A DNA stretch of 40,194 nt from a virus, in UHGV virus genome UHGV-0127942. One strand, 5' to 3'. This document shows positions 5,729 through 39,642 of this stretch, one piece after another. Below the pieces are notes generated by a model, which did no database searches, was not told the origin of the DNA, and saw only the letters and a list, made by a program, of their open reading frames with translations. The translations under genes were made by a program, and so were the position numbers. Positions within the stretch are counted from its first letter, which is position 1. Each line of letters starts with the position of its first letter.

Positions 5729-5747
5729 AACTTGTTACCTCGGTCTG

Positions 5748-5762
5748 TTACCGTTGAGGTAA
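5748..5762. promoter_or_regulatory. Operator-like palindrome TTACC-N5-GGTAA (leftward early promoter, downstream site)
   Basis: Perfect 5-bp inverted half-sites; lies between the -10 of the leftward promoter and the first ATG (5728), overlapping the RBS. Confidence 0.6.
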
Positions 5763-5789
5763 TAATTATGCGTATATGGTTTGATGTCA
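5761..5789 (-). promoter_or_regulatory. Leftward early promoter (pL-like), sigma70-type
   Basis: Minus-strand TTGACA (plus 5784-5789), 17-bp spacer, -10-like AATTAT (plus 5761-5766); flanked by two operator palindromes. Confidence 0.5.
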
Positions 5790-5808
5790 ATAGATATGAG
5801 TTAAAAAA

Positions 5809-5823
5809 ATTACCCGTTAGGTA
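5809..5823. promoter_or_regulatory. Operator-like palindrome TTACC-N5-GGTAA (leftward early promoter, upstream site)
   Basis: Perfect site about 20 bp upstream of the -35 of the leftward promoter. Confidence 0.6.
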
Positions 5824-5834
5824 ATCGAATAGGC

Positions 5835-5860
5835 AATAAAAAAGCCGCCATAAGGCGGCT
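5835..5860 (-). terminator. Intrinsic terminator after the repressor gene
   Basis: Hairpin AGCCGCC-ATAA-GGCGGCT preceded on the plus strand by an A-run (T-run on the minus strand). Confidence 0.6.
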
Positions 5861-5881
5861 TACTTACTGAAAAATATGGTT

Positions 5882-6466
5882 TTATTGTTTGTTTTTTTCG
5901 TTCTGGTTGATGACAAATTCAATGTAACTTTCGATCTTTGCTTTCTCGGTTTCGGGTAACAATGCGTAGCGCGAGCGATCATAGTTGATGGTCGCAGGGT
6001 CGTGCGGGTGAATCAGTAATTCATAGCCGTGACGCCCGAATGCGGATGCAACATTCTCCAGGGTGGAAATGGAAACGCTGACCTCATTGTTTAACAGGCG
6101 GCTGATTGTCACCTGGGCTACGCCGGATGCGCGGTGAAGTTTTCCCTGTGTTGAAAGGTCGCGGCTTTCGCTCATCCAGCGTTCCAGGTTGTGAGCCGCC
6201 AGCTGGCCAATGTCGCTTGGGCCGACAGGCTGAAAACCTTCCTGAGAAAGCGAGCGATCGATATCAAGCCAGTTACGGGGTTTATTGGCGGCAGCTTCAA
6301 TTTTTCGTGCAACCTGGTCGCCGATAACCTTCTTGCCAAGAGCCCAGCGGTTTACCAGATTTGCCTGAGTTCCAAGTTTTTCAGCCATCCGCGTCTGAAC
6401 ACCATTGAATTCACGGTCGATCAAGTCGTTGAGATTTTGCCTGCGGACGTCCTGGATACTTTTCAT
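5882..6466 (-). CDS. Phage repressor, CI-like with two tandem HTH domains and no LexA-type peptidase domain
   Basis: 194 aa; HTH-like segments near residues 20-45 and 105-140; no S24 peptidase motifs; divergent from a Cro-like gene across an operator-rich 154-bp spacer. Confidence 0.7.
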   Translation of the reverse strand: MKSIQDVRRQNLNDLIDREFNGVQTRMAEKLGTQANLVNRWALGKKVIGDQVARKIEAAANKPRNWLDIDRSLSQEGFQPVGPSDIGQLAAHNLERWMSESRDLSTQGKLHRASGVAQVTISRLLNNEVSVSISTLENVASAFGRHGYELLIHPHDPATINYDRSRYALLPETEKAKIESYIEFVINQNEKNKQ

Positions 6467-6521
6467 TTTCTGGAAAATCGCCTCATATATGAATCAGTAG
6501 ATGATTCAATTTAAAGCAATA

Positions 6522-6536
6522 TTACCCAACAGGTAA
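6522..6536. promoter_or_regulatory. Operator-like palindrome TTACC-N5-GGTAA in the repressor/cro intergenic region
   Basis: Perfect site; two imperfect copies follow at 6539-6553 and 6570-6584. Confidence 0.65.
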
Positions 6537-6569
6537 ATGCACCCCACAGGTAACTATCCTTGATTTTTG

Positions 6570-6584
6570 TTACCTTATGGGTGA
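6570..6584. promoter_or_regulatory. Imperfect operator copy (TTACC-N5-GGTGA) overlapping the putative cro promoter
   Basis: 9/10 half-site match; lies between TTGATT (6560-6565) and a -10-like element upstream of cro. Confidence 0.45.
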
Positions 6585-6620
6585 ATATTTATTATCTGAA
6601 ATAAATATCAGGCAATAGCT

Positions 6621-6851
6621 ATGAGCGATAACGGACATTTCGATTTCAAAAAGCACTGGCTTGCACTTACTCCGGATGAGCGTGAAGCCTTCGCACAGGA
6701 AGCCGGAACGACGAGTCACTATATCCAGACTCACTTAACAGGTAAGCGCAAAATGCCAGGTAAGGTATTGATGAATGGGCTTTTTAAAGCCTGTAAAACA
6801 AGACAATGGCTGCGCTCAAAAGCAGAATTGGCATACTTCTTCTACTCATGA
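6621..6851 (+). CDS. Cro-like small transcriptional regulator
   Basis: 76 aa with HTH-like segment EAFAQEAGTTSHYIQTHLTGKRKMP; divergent from repressor; followed by an intrinsic terminator. Confidence 0.6.
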   Translation: MSDNGHFDFKKHWLALTPDEREAFAQEAGTTSHYIQTHLTGKRKMPGKVLMNGLFKACKTRQWLRSKAELAYFFYS

Positions 6852-6873
6852 TATCCAGCCACAACCCTCTGTA

Positions 6874-6896
6874 GACCGCCATCCGGCGGTCTTTTC
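6874..6896 (+). terminator. Intrinsic terminator after cro-like gene
   Basis: Hairpin GACCGCC-ATCC-GGCGGTC followed by TTTTC. Confidence 0.6.
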
Positions 6897-7001
6897 ATAT
6901 CTATTCGTACCTCAAAGGTAATAAAAAACCAAATCTGGTTGATCTTTTTTTTGTGTCAGCACAAAATGACCGTAATCCCAATACTAATAACAGGGCTTGC
7001 C

Positions 7002-8815: not shown

Positions 8816-8852
8816 TACCAGCGCGATAGCGCATTTTTTTACGTCTCGACAA

Positions 8853-8867
8853 TTACCTGTCAGGTAA
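8853..8867. promoter_or_regulatory. Operator-like palindrome TTACC-N5-GGTAA upstream of the middle operon
   Basis: Perfect site, about 20 bp upstream of the -35 TTGATT at 8887-8892. Confidence 0.6.
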
Positions 8868-8886
8868 TAAAATATTCTAAAATCTA

Positions 8887-8915
8887 TTGATTTCGTGTCT
8901 TATGTGGTTTTTAAT
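8887..8915 (+). promoter_or_regulatory. Middle-operon promoter, sigma70-like
   Basis: TTGATT, 17-bp spacer containing TATGTGGTT, -10-like TTTAAT; bracketed by two operator palindromes. Confidence 0.45.
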
Positions 8916-8929
8916 TACCTCAGAGGTAA
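8915..8929. promoter_or_regulatory. Operator-like palindrome TTACC-N5-GGTAA overlapping the RBS of the gene at 8933
   Basis: Perfect site; its right half contains the GAGG Shine-Dalgarno 4 nt before the ATG. Confidence 0.6.
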
Positions 8930-8932
8930 ATC

Positions 8933-13215: not shown

Positions 13216-13226
13216 GCATGGTACTA

Positions 13227-13241
13227 TTACCACAACGGTAA
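13227..13241. promoter_or_regulatory. Operator-like palindrome TTACC-N5-GGTAA upstream of terminase small subunit
   Basis: Perfect site between the terminator at 13190-13215 and the terS start; an imperfect copy TTACC-N5-GGTTA follows at 13245-13259. Confidence 0.55.
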
Positions 13242-13258
13242 CTATTACCACGGTGGTT

Positions 13259-13855
13259 ATGATGCCTGCTGAACCTAAAACCTATAAACGCAAATCAACG
13301 CAATTTAAGCCACTAACAGCAATGCAGGAGGCTTATTGCCAGTCATACATCAAAACGCCTGAAAACCAGACTCAGGCAGCGATTAACGCAGGATTCTCCC
13401 CAAATACAGCGGCAGTTAAAGCCAGTGTCATGATGCGCGATGAACGCATTCAAAAACGGATTGCCGAGTTGATGGAGGAGCGCAACAAACGAATGCGCGT
13501 CAGTGCCGATTACGTTCTCATGCGCCTGGTGGAGATCGACCAGATGGACGTGATTGATATCCTCAACGACGATGGGAGCCTTAAGCCAATCCGCGAGTGG
13601 CCGAAAATCTGGCGCACTACGCTTAGTGGCTTTGATCTGTCATCGACCATCATGAACATGAACGAGGATTCGATAGAGACAATCCTCAAAAAAATTAAAT
13701 GGCCTGACAAGGTGAAGAACCTCGAACTGATTGGTAAGCACGTCGACGTCAACGCATTCAAAGAACGCCTGGATGTTAATGTGAATGTGACAATTGCTGA
13801 TCGCATAGCGGCAGCCAGGAAGCGACTCAAAGAACGTCAGGATGGTAATCAGTGA
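13259..13855 (+). CDS. Terminase small subunit
   Basis: Directly upstream of and overlapping the large terminase gene; start moved to 13259 because an intrinsic terminator hairpin (13190-13215) lies inside the longer ORF-track version. Confidence 0.6.
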   Translation: MMPAEPKTYKRKSTQFKPLTAMQEAYCQSYIKTPENQTQAAINAGFSPNTAAVKASVMMRDERIQKRIAELMEERNKRMRVSADYVLMRLVEIDQMDVIDILNDDGSLKPIREWPKIWRTTLSGFDLSSTIMNMNEDSIETILKKIKWPDKVKNLELIGKHVDVNAFKERLDVNVNVTIADRIAAARKRLKERQDGNQ

Positions 13856-15987: not shown

Positions 15988-16064
15988 TGGCGTGGTATGC
16001 AGGATTCGAACCTGCGACCAACCGCTTAGAAGGCGGTTGGTCTGTCCAACTGAGCTAATACCAC
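15988..16064 (-). tRNA. tRNA-Arg (anticodon UCU)
   Basis: Reverse complement reads GTGGTAT...anticodon stem-loop ACCGC-CTTCTAA-GCGGT...T-arm GCAGGTTCGAATCCTGC...ACCACG-CCA; architecture close to E. coli argU; D-arm pairing looks imperfect. Confidence 0.75.
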
Positions 16065-16386
16065 AACGCTGAGAGCACTTAGCCTGTTAAGGCGCCACAC
16101 TTTGTCGCGGCTCCATAAATGCTCTCATCGTTGTACCCTCGTCTCTTCCGAGGCGTCACACCGAATCGCCGGGATGGTGAATCCCCGTGCGCGGAATAAA
16201 ACCGCTCGACTTGCACATTCCGGCTACCTGGTTCGTTTGCTCGAGCAAGGGAGGGTGCCCCTTAAACGTATCCAGACCGCTATCGGCGCATGTGCCATAC
16301 GCCGTACTGCTCAAAATAAAAGCTCACTCCACCTGTTCAATTTAACGACAAGCCAGTCAGGTTAATAACCGGAATGAACTCTTTGC

Positions 16387-16401
16387 TTACCTGAAAGGTA
16401 A
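16387..16401. promoter_or_regulatory. Operator-like palindrome TTACC-N5-GGTAA upstream of the head-gene operon
   Basis: Perfect site 44 bp upstream of a TATGTGGTT element and about 90 bp upstream of the gp6.7-like gene. Confidence 0.55.
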
Positions 16402-16444
16402 TAATTCGTGCGTTAAATGTCAACCATCTACGATAAATAAATCA

Positions 16445-29995: not shown

Positions 29996-32470
29996 ATGAG
30001 ACAGGAATGTATACAAGCGGTTCAGCAGGCGGCGCAGCGCACGTTAACGGCGCGAGAAATACAGAACATTGAAGACCGCATTTATCGAAATATGCGCTCC
30101 ATTGCTCGTGATGACCCGATGTCGTGGAGACAACTTTCCGAATCAGAGCGGCTATATCGAGCAGCACAATTGGCATCTGAAGAATTACAGCGAGAAGCGG
30201 CATTAAAGAAACGTCGTGTGGCCCTCACTATAGCCGCACGTCAGAGATTGGATAAATTTATCAATAGCTATCAAGGGGCTGATGGGAAACTTGGCGCTCT
30301 TAACCGTACTATTGCTTTTAATGCAGACGGTAAATCGAATTTCCTCTCTGTTGAGTCCAGAACAAAAGCCACTCGTGATTATGCATTGAGTCAATTGCAG
30401 GAGGCATTTGAAGCAGTTGATCCTCGCTTTTTTGGCCTGTTTGAAGATGAAGCTGGCGTGCGTGATCTGGTATATGAAATGCGAGGGCAAAATACTGGCA
30501 ATGCTAAAGCAAGAAAAGGTGCTAAGGCGTGGAGAGAAGTTACAGAGCTGCTGCGCCGCCGGTTTAATGATGCTGGTGGGGACATTGGCTATCTCGAAAA
30601 CTGGGGGATCCCTCAACATCATTCTATGGAAAAGGTTGGGGCGGTATCAAAAGATAAATGGGTTAGCGATGTTATAGGTAAGCTGGATCGCAAATATTAT
30701 ACCCGAGCCGATGGACAACTGATGAACGATGCCGAGTTGTCTGCATTTCTTGGAGAGGCTTATAACACGATCGCTACTGGTGGGCTGAATAAGCTTACTG
30801 ATACCGGAATGCGAATTTCCGGCGCACGTGCTAACCGTGGTAATGCATCACGACAGATACATTTCAAAGATGCAGATTCCTATCTGCAATATCAGCAACT
30901 TTATGGCGATCGCTCTCTATGGGAAATCATGGTCGGTCACCTTGAAGGTATCAGTAAAGATATTGCACTGGTGGAAACATATGGCCCAAACCCCGATCAT
31001 GTTTTCCGCTCTCTTCTTGATCAGGTGAAGGCAGAAACGGCAACAGCTAACCCGAGTAAAACCGGTAAAGTCGAGCGGCTGGCGAACAACACAGAGAATC
31101 TGTACAACTTTATTTCCGGAAAGACACAGCCTGTAGCGAATCCGCACATCGCGCGATGGTCTGACAATATCCGCAACTGGCTGGTTGCCAGCAGACTCGG
31201 ATCCGCGTTGCTGTCATCGTTCTCTGATCTTGGAACCATGTATCTGTCTGCGAAGGTTACCAACCTTCCAATGAACCAGTTATTCCGCAACCAGCTTGAA
31301 GCTATGGACCCAACGAACCGTACAGAACTTGCGCGGGCGCGCCGCGCTGGTCTGGCGATGGAATCTCTACTTGGCAGCGTTAACCGCTGGGCGATGGATA
31401 ATATGGGGCCGTCTGTGTCTCGTTGGGCGGCAACGGCGGTAATGCGTGCCAGTGGGCTTACAGCATGGTCAGATGCGCACAAGCGCGCCTATGGCGTAAC
31501 CATGATTGGAAGCCTGGGAGAAGTAGTGTCACGGACACCAGACCTTCGTAGCCTCGATAATTCTGATTTTCGTATCCTGAAAAGCAAAGGGATTACTGAC
31601 ACAGACTGGAGCGTATGGAAGCTGGCGCAACAGGAGGACTGGGGGAACGGCAATAATACGATGCTGACACCGGAAAGCATTATGCGTATCCCTGATTCAG
31701 CAGTTAAACATCTTGGTGAGCCTGAACGCGTGAAATTTGAGGCAATGCGTAAACTGCTCGGTGCCGTAACTGAAGAAGTTGATATGGCTGTTATTACACC
31801 GGGAGCACGTGAGCAACTGATAACCGGTTCTGGTATTCAGCGTGGAACATGGAAAGGTGAATTAACGAGAAGTGTTTTCCTGTTTAAATCGTTCCCTATC
31901 TCGGTGGTTATGCGTCACTGGTCACGCGCTATGGGTATGCCGTCTGCTGGTGGGCGTGCGGCATATATTGCGACGTTTATTGCCAGTACGACCATTCTTG
32001 GCGCTTTGTCGCAGCAACTTAACGACCTTGCGTCTGGTCGTAATCCTCGCGAGATGACAGGAGAAGATGCTGCTAAATTTTGGCTTGGTGCTCTACTGAA
32101 AGGTGGTGGTCTTGGCCTTTACGGTGACTTTTTATTGTCAGATCACACTAGGTACGGAAGCGGCGCGCTGGCGTCGATGCTTGGCCCGGTAGCTGGTCTG
32201 GTTGATGACGTAGTGAAGATTGCTCAGGGCATACCGTTAAATGCTGTGGAAGGGAAGAGTGAGCAGACTGGTGGTGATCTGGTGAAGCTGGGGAAAGGTT
32301 TGATGCCAGGTGCGAATCTCTGGTACTTAAAGGCGGCTCTCGATCATATGATCTTTAACCAGATGCAGGAGTATTTTTCACCAGGCTATTTGCGTAAAAT
32401 GGAGCAACGTTCGAAGAAAGAGTTTAATCAGACATACTGGTGGCGACCTCAGGATGTCACTCCGCAATAA
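29996..32470 (+). CDS. Internal virion / ejection protein (gp16-position)
   Basis: 824 aa; together with the preceding gene occupies the position of T7 gp16. Confidence 0.5.
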   Translation: MRQECIQAVQQAAQRTLTAREIQNIEDRIYRNMRSIARDDPMSWRQLSESERLYRAAQLASEELQREAALKKRRVALTIAARQRLDKFINSYQGADGKLGALNRTIAFNADGKSNFLSVESRTKATRDYALSQLQEAFEAVDPRFFGLFEDEAGVRDLVYEMRGQNTGNAKARKGAKAWREVTELLRRRFNDAGGDIGYLENWGIPQHHSMEKVGAVSKDKWVSDVIGKLDRKYYTRADGQLMNDAELSAFLGEAYNTIATGGLNKLTDTGMRISGARANRGNASRQIHFKDADSYLQYQQLYGDRSLWEIMVGHLEGISKDIALVETYGPNPDHVFRSLLDQVKAETATANPSKTGKVERLANNTENLYNFISGKTQPVANPHIARWSDNIRNWLVASRLGSALLSSFSDLGTMYLSAKVTNLPMNQLFRNQLEAMDPTNRTELARARRAGLAMESLLGSVNRWAMDNMGPSVSRWAATAVMRASGLTAWSDAHKRAYGVTMIGSLGEVVSRTPDLRSLDNSDFRILKSKGITDTDWSVWKLAQQEDWGNGNNTMLTPESIMRIPDSAVKHLGEPERVKFEAMRKLLGAVTEEVDMAVITPGAREQLITGSGIQRGTWKGELTRSVFLFKSFPISVVMRHWSRAMGMPSAGGRAAYIATFIASTTILGALSQQLNDLASGRNPREMTGEDAAKFWLGALLKGGGLGLYGDFLLSDHTRYGSGALASMLGPVAGLVDDVVKIAQGIPLNAVEGKSEQTGGDLVKLGKGLMPGANLWYLKAALDHMIFNQMQEYFSPGYLRKMEQRSKKEFNQTYWWRPQDVTPQ

Positions 32471-32479
32471 GGAAGTGTT

Positions 32480-32649
32480 GTGTTTTTAATTATTTTGAGT
32501 GTGATAATTTCTGGTGGGTTGTTATTTATTGACCGCTACAAATATTTTCTTAACCCTCAGACTCAAGCTATTTGCTGGTTCATCTTTGTTGTGCAGGGAA
32601 TAGTTCTTGTTGCAAGCCTTATTGAGGGGAGGCCTCTGATTTTTACTGG
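32480..32649 (+). CDS. Possible small hydrophobic protein (about 57 aa)
   Basis: Not in the ORF track; GTG at 32480 five nt after AAGGAAG; product VFLIILSVIISGGLLFIDRY... is strongly hydrophobic. Confidence 0.25.
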
Positions 32650-32665
32650 GTAAATAGGTGACTAC

Positions 32666-32956
32666 ATGCAAGCTATAGGATTCATTGTTTATATCGTCGT
32701 TGGTCTTTTTCAGTTGGCAGCAATTATGGCTGGGCTTGAATCATGGTGGGGATTGCACTGGATAATTGCAGCCCCCATTGCTTTCATCGTGAGCTATATT
32801 CCATTTGTTGGAGCGATTGTTGGTATGGTTGGTGCTGTGGATGTATGGCGGTGGGAGTGGTGGCAGGCTGGCCTTCTCTTCTTTGGTGGGATCATCTTTG
32901 CTATTGTCTGCGGTGGAATGTCATCATTTTTCGAACGGCTATCATTCAGAAAATGA
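32666..32956 (+). CDS. Small integral membrane protein
   Basis: 96 aa with several predicted transmembrane stretches (IVYIVVGLFQLAAIMAGL..., IAAPIAFIVSYIPFVGAIVGMVGAV...); followed by a palindrome and a terminator. Confidence 0.5.
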   Translation: MQAIGFIVYIVVGLFQLAAIMAGLESWWGLHWIIAAPIAFIVSYIPFVGAIVGMVGAVDVWRWEWWQAGLLFFGGIIFAIVCGGMSSFFERLSFRK

Positions 32957-32958
32957 AC

Positions 32959-32970
32959 GTGACATGTCAC
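32959..32970. promoter_or_regulatory. 12-bp perfect palindrome GTGACATGTCAC (copy 3)
   Basis: 3 nt after the stop of the membrane-protein gene and directly abutting the terminator hairpin at 32971-32995. Confidence 0.5.
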
Positions 32971-32995
32971 AGGCCGCTTTCGCGGCCTTTTCTTT
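32971..32995 (+). terminator. Intrinsic terminator after the internal-virion/membrane-protein block
   Basis: Hairpin AGGCCGC-TTTC-GCGGCCT followed by TTTTCTTT. Confidence 0.6.
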
Positions 32996-33251
32996 ATGTG
33001 GTTTGTTTTCGTAATTGTTCGGCACAATAGTCGAGATGTGTTTGCAGATCCCGCATAGACATCTGTGAGCTGGTGACGTAGTTAATCAGTGCAGTCAGTT
33101 CGGCAAGTGGGCCATCGACATTAAATCCATCCTTATCGAGATCCCGGAGTAATTTCATCAAGTGCGATCCCTCCACCAGTGACCTGACGCCTCCCGGCGT
33201 GTGGATCCTTTCGGTAAATCCGTCTTCCAGTGGATAGTGATACTGCTGCAT
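32994..33251 (-). CDS. LexA-controlled small protein, candidate antirepressor
   Basis: 85-aa minus-strand ORF with RBS GGAGAAG; promoter immediately upstream contains a near-consensus LexA box; no protein family I can name. Confidence 0.6.
   Translation of the reverse strand: MQQYHYPLEDGFTERIHTPGGVRSLVEGSHLMKLLRDLDKDGFNVDGPLAELTALINYVTSSQMSMRDLQTHLDYCAEQLRKQTT
32995..33016 (+). promoter_or_regulatory. Candidate promoter: TATGTGGTTT-N6-GTAATT
   Basis: Perfect 10-mer immediately after the terminator at 32971-32995; would transcribe antisense across the LexA-controlled gene. Confidence 0.35.
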
Positions 33252-33270
33252 CTTATCTTCTCCATGTAAT

Positions 33271-33290
33271 AACTGTATATTTATACAGTA
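33271..33290 (-). promoter_or_regulatory. LexA (SOS) box within the promoter of the minus-strand gene 32994-33251
   Basis: CTGT-ATATTTAT-ACAG (core 33273-33288); minus-strand 20-mer TACTGTATAAATATACAGTT matches the remembered LexA consensus TACTGTATATATATACAGTA at 18/20; sits in the spacer between TTGATA and a -10-like hexamer. Confidence 0.75.
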
Positions 33291-33327
33291 TCAAATAATT
33301 TGTTTGCTATCCAGCACGTTTTGCAAA

Positions 33328-33342
33328 TTACCCGAAAGGTAA
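33328..33342. promoter_or_regulatory. Operator-like palindrome TTACC-N5-GGTAA between the LexA-controlled gene and the tail-fibre gene
   Basis: Perfect site 32 bp upstream of TATGTGGTTT (33374-33383) and about 40 bp from the LexA box. Confidence 0.55.
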
Positions 33343-33373
33343 TATCTGTTCATATTCACAGTCTTTCTATCCA

Positions 33374-33398
33374 TATGTGGTTTTTCAGGTAATAGAAT
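33374..33398 (+). promoter_or_regulatory. Candidate late promoter: TATGTGGTTT-N6-TAATAGAAT
   Basis: Perfect 10-mer followed by -10-like TAATAG/TAGAAT, about 50-70 bp upstream of the tail-fibre ATG. Confidence 0.4.
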
Positions 33399-33446
33399 AA
33401 CCAGATATGCGGCGCAACGGGTGCTGCGACTATCTGGAGATTTAAC

Positions 33447-36296
33447 ATGACGGTCTCAACCGAAGTTGACCACAACGAATACACAGGTAACGGCGTTACG
33501 ACATCATTTCCGTATACCTTCCGTATTTTCAAAAAATCCGACCTGGTTGTTCAGGTGTCTGACCTTAACGGTAACGTAACAGAACTAGTGCTGGATGCTG
33601 GTTATACAGTAACAGGGGCGGGAACTTATAGTGGCGGTGCAGTGGTTCTTCCGTCGCCGCTTGCTGCTGGCTGGCGAATCACGATAGAGCGTGTGCTTGA
33701 TGTGGTGCAGGAGACTGATCTTCGCAATCAGGGAAAATTTTTCCCCGAAGTTCATGAAGATGCATTTGACTACCTGACGATGCTGATCCAGCGATGTTTT
33801 GGGTGGTTCAGACGTGCATTGATGAAACCATCTTTGCTTGCAAAATATTACGATGCAAAGCAAAACAGAATTTCCAATTTGGCCGATCCGAAGAACTCTC
33901 AGGATGCTGTAACAAAAAAATATGTGCAAGACTTATATAGTGGGGTAGTTAGGCCTGATAACATCGACAACGCAATGTATGTTACAGATCTCGCTAATGG
34001 CAAATATGACAGCTCTCGCTTGGACATGTCTGTCGGGTATGAGATAAAAACCATTTCAAACTTTGTCAGGATTAATGGGGCTGTTTATCGTGTTACTCCT
34101 GCTGCAGTCGGCATAGTGACAGAAATAACCTCGCGTTACATTTTGGCCGGAGGGAAAAAAAGCTACCTGTCTCATATTTCCAGGCATGTCAGTGGTACGC
34201 GTAGGCCGCTGAACTGGAAATTAGAATTCAGCATCATAGACGATGAGATTACCGCAGATCTTAAAGATCAGTATGGTTACACGACCATGGGATTTCAGGG
34301 GATTTACATAGACAGCAATGATGGAATGGTATACATCGGCTGGCAGACGCTAGACCCCGCATCGGTATGGGTTACGGTGCATGACTGGGTAACAGGAGCA
34401 TTGGTAACACGTCTTCATTTTCCGAATAACGTTGGTGCACCAGAAGGCATCCACGTTTACCGAGTGGCAGGACAGCGTTACATCCTGCTGCCGTACAGCC
34501 CATCTCGCACTATCAGAATTTACCCTATCGAAGATCCGCGTACGCTGGTTGATAAAACGCAGATTACAAACTTCACTGAATCAACACGCCTTGGAGTGCG
34601 ATATCAGTTTAGTGGCTTTGGTAATACCCTGATATACGAAAATGCGGATATGGGTTGGCCGAAAATTTTTGATGTTGAGACAGGTGTATCCAATATCTTT
34701 AACACACTGGATATTAACAGCCTTATAGAAGGATCTTACAGTCCAATGGGGACTATTACGGTTGATGCAAATGTTGGAGGTCGCGGAGCCGGTAAACCAA
34801 AACGGCAGGGTGTCGCTCTTGGTTCTCAACGGATATTTGCTGGTATTGGTGCATCTACCACGGCGGGATCTGGAAATACTTTCGCAGGGTTGCAGGGTTA
34901 TATTGAGTACAGCCTTAATGGTTCAGAATTAGGTCAGTACCTGCTGTCACCTGCAGATTTCAAAACATACTGGGATAGTTATTCAGGGAAGAGTGTTTAC
35001 TCCACTGAAAATGAGGGGGTGCAGTCTTGTGATATTTCTGGCTCTGAGGAATTGTATCTTCTACAGTCTATTCGCTATGACAATGGGGGCGGATCAAATT
35101 ATAGGACTTTAAACATCATTCGCGCTAACTGTCCATCTAATGAACCTGGAACAGTAGACATGACTCCGCTATCCAATGCCTCATCACAGTTATTTAACCC
35201 TCGCGGAAGGGTGATTAACGCTGGCCGTCACCCTGTAAACCCGGCTGATGGTATTGCGCTATTTACATCGGCACAGGCTATTTGTGACTATTTGCGGAAT
35301 ACAGATGCAGGTAGATATGTGACATATCTTGAACAGGATATGCCACTGTTTGAAGGTGGGCCATCTGCGCCAGGACAGATGACGCTGCCAGCATTCTGCC
35401 TATTGCAGATCGACTTCATCAACGGCGATACCTGGGAAATTACAGTTAATGGAACTAACAGGGCTAATAATTATACAGGAAGGATTTCCAAAAACGGCGG
35501 GTACAACTCTTTTACTAAGGTGTCCTCCCGCAGCATGTCGATTCTCGGATCCCCTGGTCTGGTTGATGTATCAATTCGCTCACCTAACTCACTAAATCTT
35601 CCAGAATTTGCTGGAGACTGGTCTACTGGTGTAAGTATAGGAGCTGCAGGTGGGGTGACAAACTGGCAGCCAGAAGGAACAGGTAACGGAGCATTATGGG
35701 AGTCAGGATATGCAAAAAACCGTGTGTTGCAGATATTCATGTCCACAACATCAAAACTGTTCTTCCGCTACGCAGACGATGCTATTCGCGCAGGTAACAC
35801 AGGCTGGGCTGAGGCATGGTCGTCGCTGAACACGACCGTCGATTCAAGTGGTTTCATCAAAAAAGCCTCTCCGGTTGTGAAGATTTTCTCAGACGGTAGT
35901 AGTGAAACAAATCGCGAATCAGATGGGGTAACCGTCACACGGCTGGCATTGGGGGAATATCTGATTGAGGGTTGCGTAGGTCTGAATGCAGATGCTTCAT
36001 GGGGGGGGATTGATGGTGGATTTGAAATACCGCAGGACCGAAACAAGCAGCCGCTCATCTGGCTGGATTATGTTGTTAACCAAGATGGCTCTGTGTTGGT
36101 GAAAACGTTTCACCGCACTCATGATAACTCGCCCGTTTTTGCACGTAACGACATCCCTGGTGTTTCGAACGGTGACCCGATCGACATTCCTGCTAATCAG
36201 TTCGTTTCTGTGCGAGTACAGATGCCTGAGGATTCAGCATGGAATAAGCTTAAGGAACAACTCAATAAGGCTGAACCAATGGAAAAAAATAAGTAA
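33447..36296 (+). CDS. Tail fibre / tailspike protein with T7 gp17-like N-terminal adaptor domain
   Basis: 949 aa; N-terminal about 160 residues (GNGVTTSFPYTFRIF...RISNLADPKNSQDAVTKKYV) resemble the T7 tail-fibre N-terminal domain; divergent C-terminal region. Confidence 0.8.
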   Translation: MTVSTEVDHNEYTGNGVTTSFPYTFRIFKKSDLVVQVSDLNGNVTELVLDAGYTVTGAGTYSGGAVVLPSPLAAGWRITIERVLDVVQETDLRNQGKFFPEVHEDAFDYLTMLIQRCFGWFRRALMKPSLLAKYYDAKQNRISNLADPKNSQDAVTKKYVQDLYSGVVRPDNIDNAMYVTDLANGKYDSSRLDMSVGYEIKTISNFVRINGAVYRVTPAAVGIVTEITSRYILAGGKKSYLSHISRHVSGTRRPLNWKLEFSIIDDEITADLKDQYGYTTMGFQGIYIDSNDGMVYIGWQTLDPASVWVTVHDWVTGALVTRLHFPNNVGAPEGIHVYRVAGQRYILLPYSPSRTIRIYPIEDPRTLVDKTQITNFTESTRLGVRYQFSGFGNTLIYENADMGWPKIFDVETGVSNIFNTLDINSLIEGSYSPMGTITVDANVGGRGAGKPKRQGVALGSQRIFAGIGASTTAGSGNTFAGLQGYIEYSLNGSELGQYLLSPADFKTYWDSYSGKSVYSTENEGVQSCDISGSEELYLLQSIRYDNGGGSNYRTLNIIRANCPSNEPGTVDMTPLSNASSQLFNPRGRVINAGRHPVNPADGIALFTSAQAICDYLRNTDAGRYVTYLEQDMPLFEGGPSAPGQMTLPAFCLLQIDFINGDTWEITVNGTNRANNYTGRISKNGGYNSFTKVSSRSMSILGSPGLVDVSIRSPNSLNLPEFAGDWSTGVSIGAAGGVTNWQPEGTGNGALWESGYAKNRVLQIFMSTTSKLFFRYADDAIRAGNTGWAEAWSSLNTTVDSSGFIKKASPVVKIFSDGSSETNRESDGVTVTRLALGEYLIEGCVGLNADASWGGIDGGFEIPQDRNKQPLIWLDYVVNQDGSVLVKTFHRTHDNSPVFARNDIPGVSNGDPIDIPANQFVSVRVQMPEDSAWNKLKEQLNKAEPMEKNK

Positions 36297-38351: not shown

Positions 38352-38500
38352 CATGGCATTTTTCATGGTACTGATTTCCGGTGACGGTATATAAAACGGT
38401 ACGAGAAAAATTCATCTTTGGAAAAATGTTATCACTCAATTGGTTATGGTATCCGTAAATAATTGAGTGGGAATGATTTGACCCTGCACTATGAATGAAC

Positions 38501-38568: not shown

Positions 38569-39108
38569 TTAATTAAACCAGCTGTCCGATTTGTTCTCTT
38601 CTGCTTTGCCCACGCTTTTCATCAGATCGCGACCGCCTTCAGTCATATTTCTGTTGGCGTCAGCTTCAGATTGCACCACATCGGTTTGCGCAGCTTTGTG
38701 CTTCAGTTCCTGATCGATAAATTCGTTTTCTCGCTTAACGCGGGCTTCTTCTTTCGCCAGCGCCAGTTTTTGTTTCTGAATCTCTAAGCTGCGTAGCTCA
38801 TCTTCATAACTTTGATCGCGTTTTTTGTCCGCAGAGGCTTCGGCGTCCAGTTTATCCTGACGAGCTTTCTTATTTGCCGCTGCCGTTGCCGCTCTTTTGT
38901 TAGCGGCGGCCTGGGCATTTGCGCGACGTTGCTTCTCTTGCTGGATTTCCCTGTTGCGCTCCGCGACCCATTCGTCATGCTGCCTTTGCTCTTCATTTTT
39001 ACCTTGCTGTTCCGCTTCTGCGACAGCAGAGAGTTGATCCTGCAATGATGAGGCGATAGCCGGATAGCTTAAGGAGGCTAAGATGGCGCAAAGAAAAACT
39101 TTCTTCAT
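38569..39108 (-). CDS. yfgI: Host periplasmic coiled-coil protein YfgI
   Basis: 179 aa with signal peptide; sequence and length match my memory of E. coli YfgI, adjacent to yfgH and yfgG as in E. coli. Confidence 0.6.
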   Translation of the reverse strand: MKKVFLCAILASLSYPAIASSLQDQLSAVAEAEQQGKNEEQRQHDEWVAERNREIQQEKQRRANAQAAANKRAATAAANKKARQDKLDAEASADKKRDQSYEDELRSLEIQKQKLALAKEEARVKRENEFIDQELKHKAAQTDVVQSEADANRNMTEGGRDLMKSVGKAEENKSDSWFN

Positions 39109-39123
39109 GACTCCTCCTGATTA

Positions 39124-39642
39124 TTAGCTCTTTTCAGGACATTTGGTATTTGGCTGAATACGCGTTTCGTTATACGTCGTGGTAATAACAACGGCTAAAC
39201 CTGTCGTAAACTGGCACTCTTTACCCACCTGGGTAGAGGTATACACTTTGGTGCCTTCCTTATAGGTTAAAGAAACACCTTCCACTAAGGTTTTATCATT
39301 CACCATAGAACCCGCTGCCGCGCCTACAGCTCCGCCGCCAACTGCACCTGCCGTCGTTCCGGAATTGCTGCCAGACCCGACGTTGTGGCCGATAACACCG
39401 CCAGCGACTGCGCCAATAAGCGCGCCGAAGGCTTGTGCGTTCCGTTTATTTTGGGAGTTGTCTACGGCAACTTTTGCGGGAAGAATGGAAATAATATTAA
39501 CGGTTTTAGTTTCTTGTTTGGTATTCAGTTGATCGGTTTGATAAACATCGGCAGCATGATCGTCAGCATTTGACTGGCATCCTGCCAGAGTGAATGACGC
39601 TAACATTGCCACAGGCAGAAGACATTTTTTAAATTTCATCAC
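39124..39642 (-). CDS. yfgH: Host outer-membrane lipoprotein YfgH (glycine-zipper)
   Basis: 172 aa; lipobox LAGC; Gly-rich GAxxGxxxG repeats; matches E. coli YfgH length and context. Confidence 0.6.
   Translation of the reverse strand: MMKFKKCLLPVAMLASFTLAGCQSNADDHAADVYQTDQLNTKQETKTVNIISILPAKVAVDNSQNKRNAQAFGALIGAVAGGVIGHNVGSGSNSGTTAGAVGGGAVGAAAGSMVNDKTLVEGVSLTYKEGTKVYTSTQVGKECQFTTGLAVVITTTYNETRIQPNTKCPEKS

What the first reader, a model, noticed from the sequence alone, without database searches (positions are those of the whole stretch)
32994..33300. Near-consensus LexA box controls an orphan 85-aa gene in the tail region: candidate SOS antirepressor
On the minus strand, directly upstream of the ATG at 33251 (RBS GGAGAAG), the sequence reads TTGATA - CTGTATAAATATACAG - T - TATTAC. 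That is a -35-like hexamer, a 16-bp CTGT-N8-ACAG palindrome with an AT-rich centre (plus coordinates 33273-33288; 18/20 to the LexA consensus as I remember it) filling the spacer, then a -10-like hexamer: the classic layout of an SOS-repressed promoter. The gene is reverse-oriented relative to all surrounding late genes and its product has no family I can name. The prophage repressor (5882-6466) has two HTH domains and no autocleavage domain, so RecA cannot induce it directly. A LexA-controlled antirepressor, as described for Gifsy-type and 186-type phages, would supply the missing induction route.
Basis: partly seen in the sequence, partly recalled or inferred. Interest (0 to 1): 0.85.

Follow-up and report, generated by a model that had tools for sequence, protein, structure and literature searches.

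The report
LexA-controlled phage antirepressor gene (ant)

Summary
On the minus strand, TTGATA-CTGTATAAATATACAG-T-TATTAC-ATGGAGAAGATAAG-ATG precedes an 85-aa ORF (32994-33251). The 20-mer TACTGTATAAATATACAGTT is 18/20 to the LexA consensus. It scores 27.6 bits, against a best of 19.4 in 100 shuffles.

The gene is not an orphan. The window is a phiV10/epsilon15-type (Uetakevirus) prophage. The protein is 87% identical to SPC32H Ant, annotated 'anti-repressor protein' (PDB 5D50 chain E, E=5e-47). The 194-aa repressor at 5882-6466 is a homologue of SPC32H Rep (5D50 chain A, E=4e-42), with no S24 peptidase domain.

A LexA box sits 17-20 nt before the ant ATG in all 97 related sequences examined. 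SPC32N, the variant that as I recall the 2013 paper makes Ant constitutively, differs from SPC32H by C-to-A in that box.

A conserved extended -10 promoter (TGGATA-17-TGaTACTGT) fits better; LexA occludes either.
- A second CTGT-N8-ACAG 73 bp upstream is rare and scores at chance level.
- A conserved palindrome, probably the Rep operator, lies between the two.

Verdict: interpretation supported, mechanism already known, low interest.

The parts
32994..33251 (-). ant: 85-aa antirepressor, orthologue of SPC32H Ant
   Evidence: ORF. 86.9% identical to KC911856.1 'ant: anti-repressor protein'. PDB 5D50_E 'Anti-repressor protein', E=4.6e-47. dN/dS about 0.05 against Salmonella, Enterobacter and Citrobacter orthologues.
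33260..33263 (-). Shine-Dalgarno GGAG, 8 nt before the ATG
   Evidence: GGAG is invariant in the 8-phage alignment.
33271..33290 (.). LexA box 1, TACTGTATAAATATACAGTT (core CTGT-N8-ACAG at 33273-33288)
   Evidence: 27.6 bits, 2 mismatches to consensus, best shuffle score 19.4. Found at the same position, 17-20 nt before the ATG, in all 97 related sequences, with variable centres and conserved arms. SPC32N carries C-to-A in the equivalent ACAG.
33285..33313 (-). Preferred candidate ant promoter: -35 TGGATA (33313-33308), 17-nt spacer, extended -10 TG-A-TACTGT (33293-33285). The -10 is the left arm of the LexA box.
   Evidence: Invariant in 31 of 34 distinct promoter sequences and in the invariant columns of the 8-phage alignment. 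It keeps -10 positions A2 and T6 and leaves the SD inside the transcript. This is inference; no transcription start data are available.
33266..33294 (-).
   Evidence: 9/12 to consensus but lacks the -10 final T, so the scanner does not call it. The TATTAC allele occurs in only 2 of 34 distinct sequences; SPC32H has CTGTTA/GTTTGC. A start about 7 nt downstream would fall 3' of the SD.
33327..33343 (.). Perfect palindrome ATTACC-N5-GGTAAT, probable Rep operator
   Evidence: 11 sites in the window against 1.04 expected, clustered around rep. 18 sites against 1.4 expected in SPC32H with the same layout. Invariant across the genus at -92/-90 from the ant ATG. Annotated 'repressor; lysogeny' in the epsilon15 record.
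33344..33363 (.). LexA-like box 2, GACTGTGAATATGAACAGAT (core 33346-33361), 73 bp from box 1
   Evidence: 11.1 bits, below the weakest training site (12.3) and within the shuffle null of 11.9 +/- 2.2. Absent from phiV10, SPC32H and epsilon15. The exact 24-mer is in only 2 IMG/VR contigs. The commonest allele at this position scores 5.3 bits. Probably not functional.
32971..32988 (.). GC-rich hairpin AGGCCGC-TTTC-GCGGCCT between the convergent 96-aa membrane ORF and ant; likely a shared terminator
   Evidence: + strand call with a T-rich tail. The hairpin is symmetric; on the ant strand there is no T run immediately after it. The equivalent element is annotated as a rho-independent terminator in epsilon15.
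5882..6466 (-). rep: 194-aa non-cleavable repressor, the target of Ant
   Evidence: PDB 5D50_A 'Repressor', E=4e-42. 42% identical to SPC32H Rep. 100% identical to the phiV10 and ZX5 repressor. HTH_3 domain, no S24 peptidase domain.
5747..6922 (.). Immunity-region copies of the ATTACC-N5-GGTAAT operator at 5747, 5809, 6521 and 6906

Best explanation
The 85-aa gene is ant, the SOS-controlled antirepressor of a phiV10/epsilon15-type (Uetakevirus) prophage, orthologous to Ant of Salmonella phage SPC32H. In the lysogen, host LexA binds the near-consensus box at 33271-33290, which overlaps the core ant promoter, and keeps ant silent. The promoter is most likely an extended -10 promoter whose -10 is the left arm of the box. 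DNA damage activates RecA and LexA cleaves itself, so ant is transcribed. Ant then binds the C-terminal domain of the non-cleavable repressor Rep (5882-6466) and breaks the DNA-binding Rep tetramer into dimers. Rep leaves its ATTACC-N5-GGTAAT operators and lytic genes switch on. Shown here: homology of both proteins to the co-crystallised pair, the strength, position and conservation of the LexA site, and purifying selection on ant. Taken from the literature on SPC32H: LexA control and the Ant-Rep mechanism. Inferred for this prophage: that the same steps operate with its own Rep, which is only 42% identical to SPC32H Rep.
For: Ant is 86.9% identical to SPC32H ant and matches PDB 5D50_E at E=4.6e-47. 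Rep matches 5D50_A at E=4e-42 and has no S24 domain. The gene order is the same as in SPC32H: large late gene, small membrane ORF, reversed ant, tailspike. The LexA box scores 27.6 bits, far above the shuffle maximum. It sits at a fixed position in 97 sequences from Escherichia, Salmonella, Enterobacter, Klebsiella, Citrobacter, Pseudocitrobacter, Scandinavium, Superficieibacter and Ca. Erwinia; there are 16 distinct versions whose centres vary while the CTGT/ACAG arms are kept. SPC32H and SPC32N differ at two positions in this locus, one being ACAG to AAAG in the box. Literature: Ant is made after LexA self-cleavage and inhibits the repressor (PMC7380047; PMC9437464); the Ant tetramer binds two Rep dimers and breaks the tetramer (PMC9638917); Rep's C-terminal tetramerisation domain binds Ant (PMC9986798). 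ant dN/dS is about 0.05. Phage ZX5 has an identical Rep and a 98.8% identical Ant, and its lysogen is mitomycin C inducible. The window has no Bro-N antirepressor that could replace Ant.
Against: No experiment exists for this prophage or for any E. coli member of the genus. The two primary SPC32H papers could not be read here, so the experimental details rest on secondary citations, database annotation and my memory of the abstracts. Rep is only 42% identical to SPC32H Rep, so conservation of the Ant-Rep interface is assumed rather than shown. Neither candidate promoter is close to consensus (7/12 and 9/12) and the transcription start is unknown. ZX5 also carries a Bro-N antirepressor, so its inducibility does not isolate the role of small Ant.
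Confidence: 0.9

Rival explanations
1. The mechanism is the same but the promoter is: -35 TTGATA and -10 TATTAC with the LexA core filling the 17-nt spacer. The alternative I favour is the extended -10 promoter TGGATA-17-TGaTACTGT.
For: In this window the hexamers match 5/6 and 4/6 with an ideal 17-nt spacer. LexA boxes in promoter spacers are a common SOS layout (general knowledge).
Against: The -10 lacks the conserved final T and the scanner does not call it. TATTAC occurs in only 2 of 34 distinct sequences; the commonest form is TATTGC (3/6) and SPC32H has CTGTTA/GTTTGC (3/6 and 1/6) although ant is reported as expressed there. A start about 7 nt downstream would lie 3' of the conserved GGAG.
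Confidence: 0.3
2. In the E. coli (phiV10-type) lineage small Ant no longer acts on the diverged Rep. Induction would depend on something else, such as the Bro-N antirepressor studied in ZX5, and ant would be a conserved SOS gene with another role.
For: Rep is only 42% identical to SPC32H Rep while Ant is 87% identical. Overexpression of the Bro-N ORF4 of ZX5 shifted the phage towards lysis.
Against: This window has no Bro-N gene, yet it keeps ant, the LexA box and Rep. Ant is under strong purifying selection across hosts that carry either Rep type. The Rep C-terminal segment (the tetramerisation and Ant-binding domain) keeps about half its residues, by my hand count on the alignments. The C-terminus of the Bro-N protein itself resembles Ant's N-terminal segment and PHROG 1760 'anti-repressor' matches Ant residues 27-75, which suggests a shared Rep-binding module rather than a replacement.
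Confidence: 0.06
3. The LexA box chiefly regulates the divergent tailspike gene, or is a chance palindrome in AT-rich intergenic DNA.
For: The box lies in a 195-nt divergent intergenic region that must also hold a tailspike promoter.
Against: The box keeps a fixed distance to the ant ATG (17-20 nt) and lies about 160 nt from the tailspike ATG. It scores 27.6 bits against a shuffle maximum of 19.4. It is conserved across at least nine host genera. The SPC32N box mutation is associated with ant deregulation (plus the abstract of Kim & Ryu 2013 as I remember it).
Confidence: 0.02

Closest known systems
Ant/Rep antirepression switch of Salmonella phage SPC32H (Kim & Ryu 2013, J Virol 87:11775; Kim et al. 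2016, PNAS 113:E2480; PDB 5D50 and 5D4Z)
   Same: Orthologous Ant (87% identity) and homologous Rep (42% identity, same two-domain layout, no S24 domain). The gene order and orientation are the same. A LexA box sits at the same distance from the ATG. The ATTACC-N5-GGTAAT palindromes are laid out the same way around rep and in the ant-tailspike spacer. Both belong to the genus Uetakevirus.
   Different: The host is E. coli. Rep is the phiV10 type (100% identical to phiV10 and ZX5 Rep). Box 1 is closer to consensus (27.6 against 25.3 bits). A weak second CTGT-N8-ACAG is present. Ant is one residue shorter. No experiments exist for this member.
Tum of coliphage 186 and the Gifsy-1/Gifsy-3/Fels-2 antirepressors (Shearwin et al. 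1998; Lemire et al. 2011)
   Same: The logic is the same: a non-cleavable repressor, and a small antirepressor gene kept silent by host LexA and expressed on SOS induction.
   Different: I detected no sequence relationship. Pfam and the PDB sequence search give only the SPC32H proteins. As I remember the abstract, Kim & Ryu described Ant as structurally distinct from the Siphoviridae and Myoviridae antirepressors. Functional analogy only.
Bro-N 'anti-repressor' of E. coli Uetakeviruses (phiV10 p23, ZX5 ORF4; PMC9782041)
   Same: It is encoded just downstream of ant on the same strand in phiV10, ZX5 and Tyrion. Overexpression pushes ZX5 towards lysis. Its C-terminal residues 142-180 resemble Ant's N-terminal segment (41% identity, E=8e-4).
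   Different: It is a larger protein (194 aa) with a Bro-N domain, and it is absent from this window. It is not the LexA-box gene.
P22 Ant (immI region)
   Same: An antirepressor that inactivates the phage repressor by binding it.
   Different: It is controlled by the phage repressors Mnt and Arc rather than LexA, and a P22 ant mutant remains SOS inducible. It is a much larger, unrelated protein (general knowledge).

Membership tests
SPC32H-type Ant/Rep antirepression module | Small (about 86 aa) protein homologous to SPC32H Ant over its full length | tested here: met
   86.9% identity over residues 2-85 to KC911856.1 ant. PDB 5D50_E, E=4.6e-47, residues 2-85 against 3-86.
SPC32H-type Ant/Rep antirepression module | Cognate repressor homologous to SPC32H Rep: N-terminal HTH DNA-binding domain plus C-terminal oligomerisation and Ant-binding domain, with no RecA-dependent autocleavage (S24) domain | tested here: met
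   5D50_A E=4e-42 over residues 1-190; 5D4Z (C-terminal domain) E=4e-20. 42% identity. Pfam gives HTH_3 only and no Peptidase_S24 at E<=1.
SPC32H-type Ant/Rep antirepression module | LexA-binding site overlapping the ant promoter | tested here: met
   27.6-bit box located 19 nt before the ATG, aligned with the SPC32H box that is mutated in SPC32N. Actual LexA binding was not tested.
SPC32H-type Ant/Rep antirepression module | Genomic position: ant reversed, between the last large late gene with its small membrane ORF and the tailspike gene | tested here: met
SPC32H-type Ant/Rep antirepression module | Ant tetramer binds the Rep C-terminal domains and dissociates the Rep tetramer from DNA | not testable with these tools
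   Known for SPC32H from secondary sources. It needs biochemistry or a multimer structure prediction for this Ant with phiV10-type Rep.
SPC32H-type Ant/Rep antirepression module | SOS (mitomycin C or UV) induction that depends on ant and on cleavable LexA | not testable with these tools
   Indirect only: the ZX5 lysogen (identical Rep, 98.8% identical Ant) rises from 1e7 to 1e9 PFU/mL with mitomycin C.
186 Tum / Gifsy-type antirepressors | Sequence or fold homology to Tum, GfoA or GfhA | tested here: not met
   The Pfam, PHROG and PDB sequence searches return only the SPC32H-type family, plus a weak hit to the C-terminus of PHROG 1760 'anti-repressor'. No direct pairwise comparison with Tum was run, because no reliable Tum sequence was at hand.
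Canonical E. coli SOS box | CTGT-N8-ACAG with an AT-rich centre, scoring within the range of known LexA sites | tested here: met
   Box 1 scores 27.6 bits against 12.3-26.4 for the training sites. Box 2 scores 11.1 bits and does not meet this criterion.

The most novel reading that the evidence does not exclude
The ant-tailspike spacer may be a more elaborate control hub than the one described for SPC32H. Three elements suggest this. First, a near-invariant Ant (87% identical between E. coli and Salmonella phages) serves Reps that are only 42% identical, so Ant could act in trans across immunity types and cross-induce co-resident Uetakevirus prophages, as Gifsy antirepressors do. Second, a conserved Rep-type operator lies 54.5 bp upstream of the LexA box (centre to centre), which could let Rep itself modulate ant or the divergent tailspike promoter. 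Third, in this prophage lineage a newly arisen second CTGT-N8-ACAG 73 bp away (about 7 helical turns) could add cooperative LexA binding.
Probability: 0.2. Interest if true: 0.35.

Novelty: already known. Interest (0 to 1): 0.15.

Why it matters
The mechanism itself adds nothing new. It restates the SPC32H Ant/Rep switch, for which there is genetics and a crystal structure of the complex. The practical value lies in annotation. The locus is present in 531 of 5,426 complete E. coli genomes, and the exact protein is seen on 815 contigs. RefSeq labels it 'hypothetical protein' almost everywhere. The one experimental paper on an E. coli member, ZX5, studied a different Bro-N 'anti-repressor' and did not mention this gene. 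Recognising ant and its LexA box explains why these common prophages should be induced by SOS-triggering antibiotics even though their repressor cannot be cleaved.

Tried and rejected
- Primary papers: I tried Kim & Ryu 2013 (DOI and PMC3807360), Kim et al. 2016 (PMC4983836) and the epsilon15 genome paper (PMC2698709). None is held, so I used citing papers, GenBank annotation and PDB names instead.
- Pfam on Ant: only a sub-threshold DUF724 hit, which is meaningless. The best PHROG hit, phrog_450, has 'unknown function'.
- Box 2 (33346-33361) as a second LexA operator: rejected as probably non-functional. It scores at chance level, is absent from phiV10, SPC32H and epsilon15, and the exact sequence is in only 2 IMG/VR contigs.
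- A -10 inside the right arm of the box (TATACA): I considered this by eye and found no acceptable -35 at 16-18 nt.
- Bro-N antirepressor in the window: none found by tblastn. The only hit at E<1e-3 is to ant itself.
- Rfam: the only match in the window is a tRNA; there is no RNA family at the ant locus.
- Structure prediction and the large protein searches were not run, because a solved structure at 87% identity already answers the question.
- My first dN/dS script failed on a file name and was rerun successfully.

Full report
Yes. On the minus strand the window reads TTGATA (33294-33289), CTGTATAAATATACAG (33288-33273), T, TATTAC (33271-33266), ATGGAGAAGATAAG, then ATG (33251-33249). The ATG opens an 85-aa ORF that ends at 32994. 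The 20-mer TACTGTATAAATATACAGTT differs from the LexA consensus TACTGTATATATATACAGTA at two positions.

I built a symmetrised weight matrix from 29 E. coli SOS boxes. The list was recalled from memory of the Lewis 1994 and Fernandez de Henestrosa 2000 compilations, so it is approximate. With it the site scores 27.6 bits. That is above every training site (12.3-26.4 bits) and above the best score in 100 shuffles of the window (mean 11.9, maximum 19.4). The next-best real site in the window scores 11.1 bits. The bare pattern CTGT-N8-ACAG occurs 4 times against 0.42 expected.

The gene is antisense to the surrounding late genes: the 824-aa gene at 29996-32470, two small membrane ORFs, and the tailspike at 33447-36296. 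One caveat is that the sigma-70 scanner does not report TTGATA/TATTAC, because the -10 lacks the conserved last T.

**2. What is the element?**
The window is a complete prophage of the phiV10/epsilon15 type (genus Uetakevirus).
- An integrase lies at 50-1306.
- The att core ATTGAGTGGGAATGATT reported for phiV10, epsilon15 and ZX5 lies at 38462-38478.
- The host genes yfgI and yfgH lie at 38569-39642.
- E. coli strain 2017.18.02CC is 100% identical over the ant-tailspike spacer (window 33230-33460).

**3. The gene is not an orphan.**
Its product is 86.9% identical over 84 residues to the protein annotated 'ant: anti-repressor protein' in Salmonella phages SPC32H and SPC32N. It matches PDB 5D50 chain E, 'Anti-repressor protein', at E=4.6e-47.

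It also matches the Rep C-terminal-domain structure 5D4Z. It is 42% identical to SPC32H Rep and 100% identical to the repressor of phiV10, ZX5 and other E. coli Uetakeviruses. Pfam finds HTH_3 (two stretches, best at 106-147), a weak N-terminal YdaS/Cro-like HTH, and no S24 peptidase domain.

Gene order is the same as in SPC32H: large late gene, small membrane ORF, reversed ant, tailspike.

**4. Evidence that the LexA box is functional.**
I collected 97 sequences that carry an ant homologue:
- this window;
- eight phage records;
- 80 IMG/VR contigs;
- six bacterial genomes (Citrobacter braakii, C. werkmanii, Superficieibacter, Ca. Erwinia dacicola, Pseudocitrobacter, Scandinavium);
- two contigs found through box 2.

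In every one, the best LexA-matrix hit in the 260 nt upstream of ant lies at the same place, 17-20 nt before the ATG. There are 16 distinct 20-mers. Their central bases vary (ATAAATAT, ATATTTAT, ATGTTTAT, ACATATAT, ATAAGCAT and others) while the CTGT and ACAG arms are kept. Most score 22-28 bits. The exceptions are two Klebsiella phages and Superficieibacter, which have ATGT as the left arm (19.4 and 13.9 bits), and SPC32N.

The deposited SPC32H and SPC32N genomes differ at only two positions in this 3.2-kb locus. One is C-to-A in the right arm of the box (ACAG to AAAG), which lowers the score from 25.3 to 18.4 bits. As I remember the abstract of Kim & Ryu 2013, this is the operator mutation that makes Ant constitutive. 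I could not open the paper.

Held papers do state the following:
- In these Salmonella prophages Ant is made upon LexA self-cleavage and inhibits the repressor by protein-protein interaction (PMC7380047).
- SPC32H is among the phages that use host LexA to trigger the lytic cycle (PMC9437464).
- Rep's C-terminal tetramerisation domain is the Ant-binding domain (PMC9986798).

ant itself is under strong purifying selection. dN/dS is about 0.05 against the Salmonella, Enterobacter and Citrobacter orthologues, with synonymous sites near saturation.

**5. Which promoter does LexA block?**
In this window TTGATA/TATTAC matches 9/12. However, TATTAC occurs in only 2 of 34 distinct promoter sequences. 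The commonest form is TATTGC, and SPC32H has CTGTTA/GTTTGC. A transcript starting about 7 nt after TATTAC would begin 3' of the conserved GGAG.

A different arrangement is invariant in 31 of 34 sequences and in the eight-phage alignment: TGGATA (33313-33308), a 17-nt spacer, then TG-n-TACTGT (33293-33285). This is an extended -10 promoter whose -10 is the left arm of the LexA box. It keeps the critical A2 and T6, and it would start transcription inside the box, leaving a leader of about 27 nt that contains the SD.

In either layout bound LexA covers the core promoter.

**6. Other elements in the 195-nt spacer.**
(a) A second CTGT-N8-ACAG (33346-33361; GACTGTGAATATGAACAGAT) lies 73 bp from box 1. 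It scores 11.1 bits, which is within the shuffle null. It is absent from phiV10, SPC32H and epsilon15, and the exact sequence is in only two IMG/VR contigs. The commonest allele at that position scores 5.3 bits. I regard it as a chance or very recent variant.

(b) A perfect palindrome ATTACC-N5-GGTAAT lies at 33327-33343. The motif occurs 11 times in the window against 1.04 expected, with copies flanking rep (5747, 5809, 6521, 6906) and at the heads of other transcription units. SPC32H has 18 against 1.4 expected in the same layout, including three in the rep-cro spacer and one in the ant-tailspike spacer. The epsilon15 record annotates the equivalent site as 'repressor; lysogeny', next to an IHF site. 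The N-terminal helix NLVNRW is identical in the two Reps despite 42% overall identity, which fits a shared operator. This is probably the Rep operator. What it does here (tailspike promoter control, or feedback on ant) is unknown.

**7. The E. coli literature.**
The only experimental paper on an E. coli member is on ZX5 (PMC9782041). It tested a different 'anti-repressor', ORF4, a Bro-N protein related to phiV10 p23. It does not cite SPC32H. That gene lies downstream of ant in phiV10, ZX5 and Tyrion but is absent from this window. Small Ant is therefore the only antirepressor candidate here.

The same paper reports that the ZX5 lysogen is mitomycin C inducible, rising from 1e7 to 1e9 PFU/mL. 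ZX5 has an identical Rep and a 98.8% identical Ant.

The C-terminus of phiV10 p23 weakly resembles Ant's N-terminal segment (41% over 41 aa, E=8e-4). PHROG 1760 'anti-repressor' matches Ant residues 27-75 at its C-terminal end. Together these hint at a shared Rep-binding module.

**8. Comparison with known systems, and verdict.**
By every feature I could test, this is a member of the SPC32H-type Ant/Rep module: both proteins, the LexA box and the synteny. Ant-Rep binding and ant-dependent SOS induction could not be tested.

It works like 186 Tum and the Gifsy antirepressors. I found no sequence relationship to them, so that comparison is an analogy only.

It is not new: the mechanism was published in 2013 and the complex structure in 2016, and UniRef already names some identical E. 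coli proteins 'Anti-repressor protein'. What remains of some value is annotation. The locus is in about 10% of complete E. coli genomes (531 of 5,426) and is nearly always labelled hypothetical. Interest is low (0.15).

Noticed in passing
window 5747-5763, 5809-5825, 6521-6537, 6906-6922, 8852-8868, 8914-8930, 13226-13260, 16386-16402, 33327-33343: The palindrome ATTACC-N5-GGTAAT occurs 11 times against about 1 expected, at rep and at the heads of transcription units. Two pairs are spaced exactly 62 bp apart (5747/5809 and 8852/8914). SPC32H has the same layout (18 sites against 1.4 expected), and epsilon15 annotates one copy as a repressor site. It is probably the genome-wide Rep operator set.
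   Followed up: partly
window 33344-33363: A second CTGT-N8-ACAG (GACTGTGAATATGAACAGAT) lies 73 bp from the main LexA box. It scores at chance level and is present only in this prophage lineage and two IMG/VR contigs.
   Followed up: yes
L003 (phiV10) 2071-2655; absent from window 32470-32994: phiV10, ZX5 and Tyrion carry a Bro-N 'anti-immunity/anti-repressor' gene downstream of ant on the same strand; this window lacks it. Its C-terminal residues 142-180 resemble Ant's N-terminal segment (41% identity, E=8e-4), and PHROG 1760 'anti-repressor' matches Ant 27-75. This suggests a shared Rep-binding module.
   Followed up: partly
window 33384-33398 (+ strand): The conserved sequence CAGGTAATAGAAT carries a GGTAAT operator half-site overlapping a -10-like TAGAAT (5/6) about 50 nt before the tailspike ATG. 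It may be the tailspike promoter. The best -35 is only 3/6.
   Followed up: no
window 33447-36296 and E. coli hits: The ant-tailspike spacer and the first residues of the tailspike are conserved, but the downstream tailspike bodies differ between prophages (annotated as endosialidase, GH28, SGNH/GDSL hydrolase or beta-helix). This spacer therefore marks the boundary of a swappable receptor-binding module.
   Followed up: no
window 15988-16064 (-): A phage-borne tRNA-Arg (anticodon TCT) lies between the terminase and portal regions. SPC32H has a tRNA-Arg at the equivalent position.
   Followed up: no
window 38462-38478 and 38569-39642: The att core ATTGAGTGGGAATGATT (reported as attP/attB at the 3' end of guaA for phiV10, epsilon15 and ZX5) marks the right prophage end. 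The host genes yfgI and yfgH follow. The left att copy lies outside the window.
   Followed up: partly
window 32480-32653 and 32666-32956 (+): Two small hydrophobic ORFs (57 and 96 aa) with no Pfam family lie between the last large late gene and ant. RefSeq annotates only the second, as hypothetical. SPC32H and phiV10 have a 46-aa 'integral membrane protein' here.
   Followed up: no
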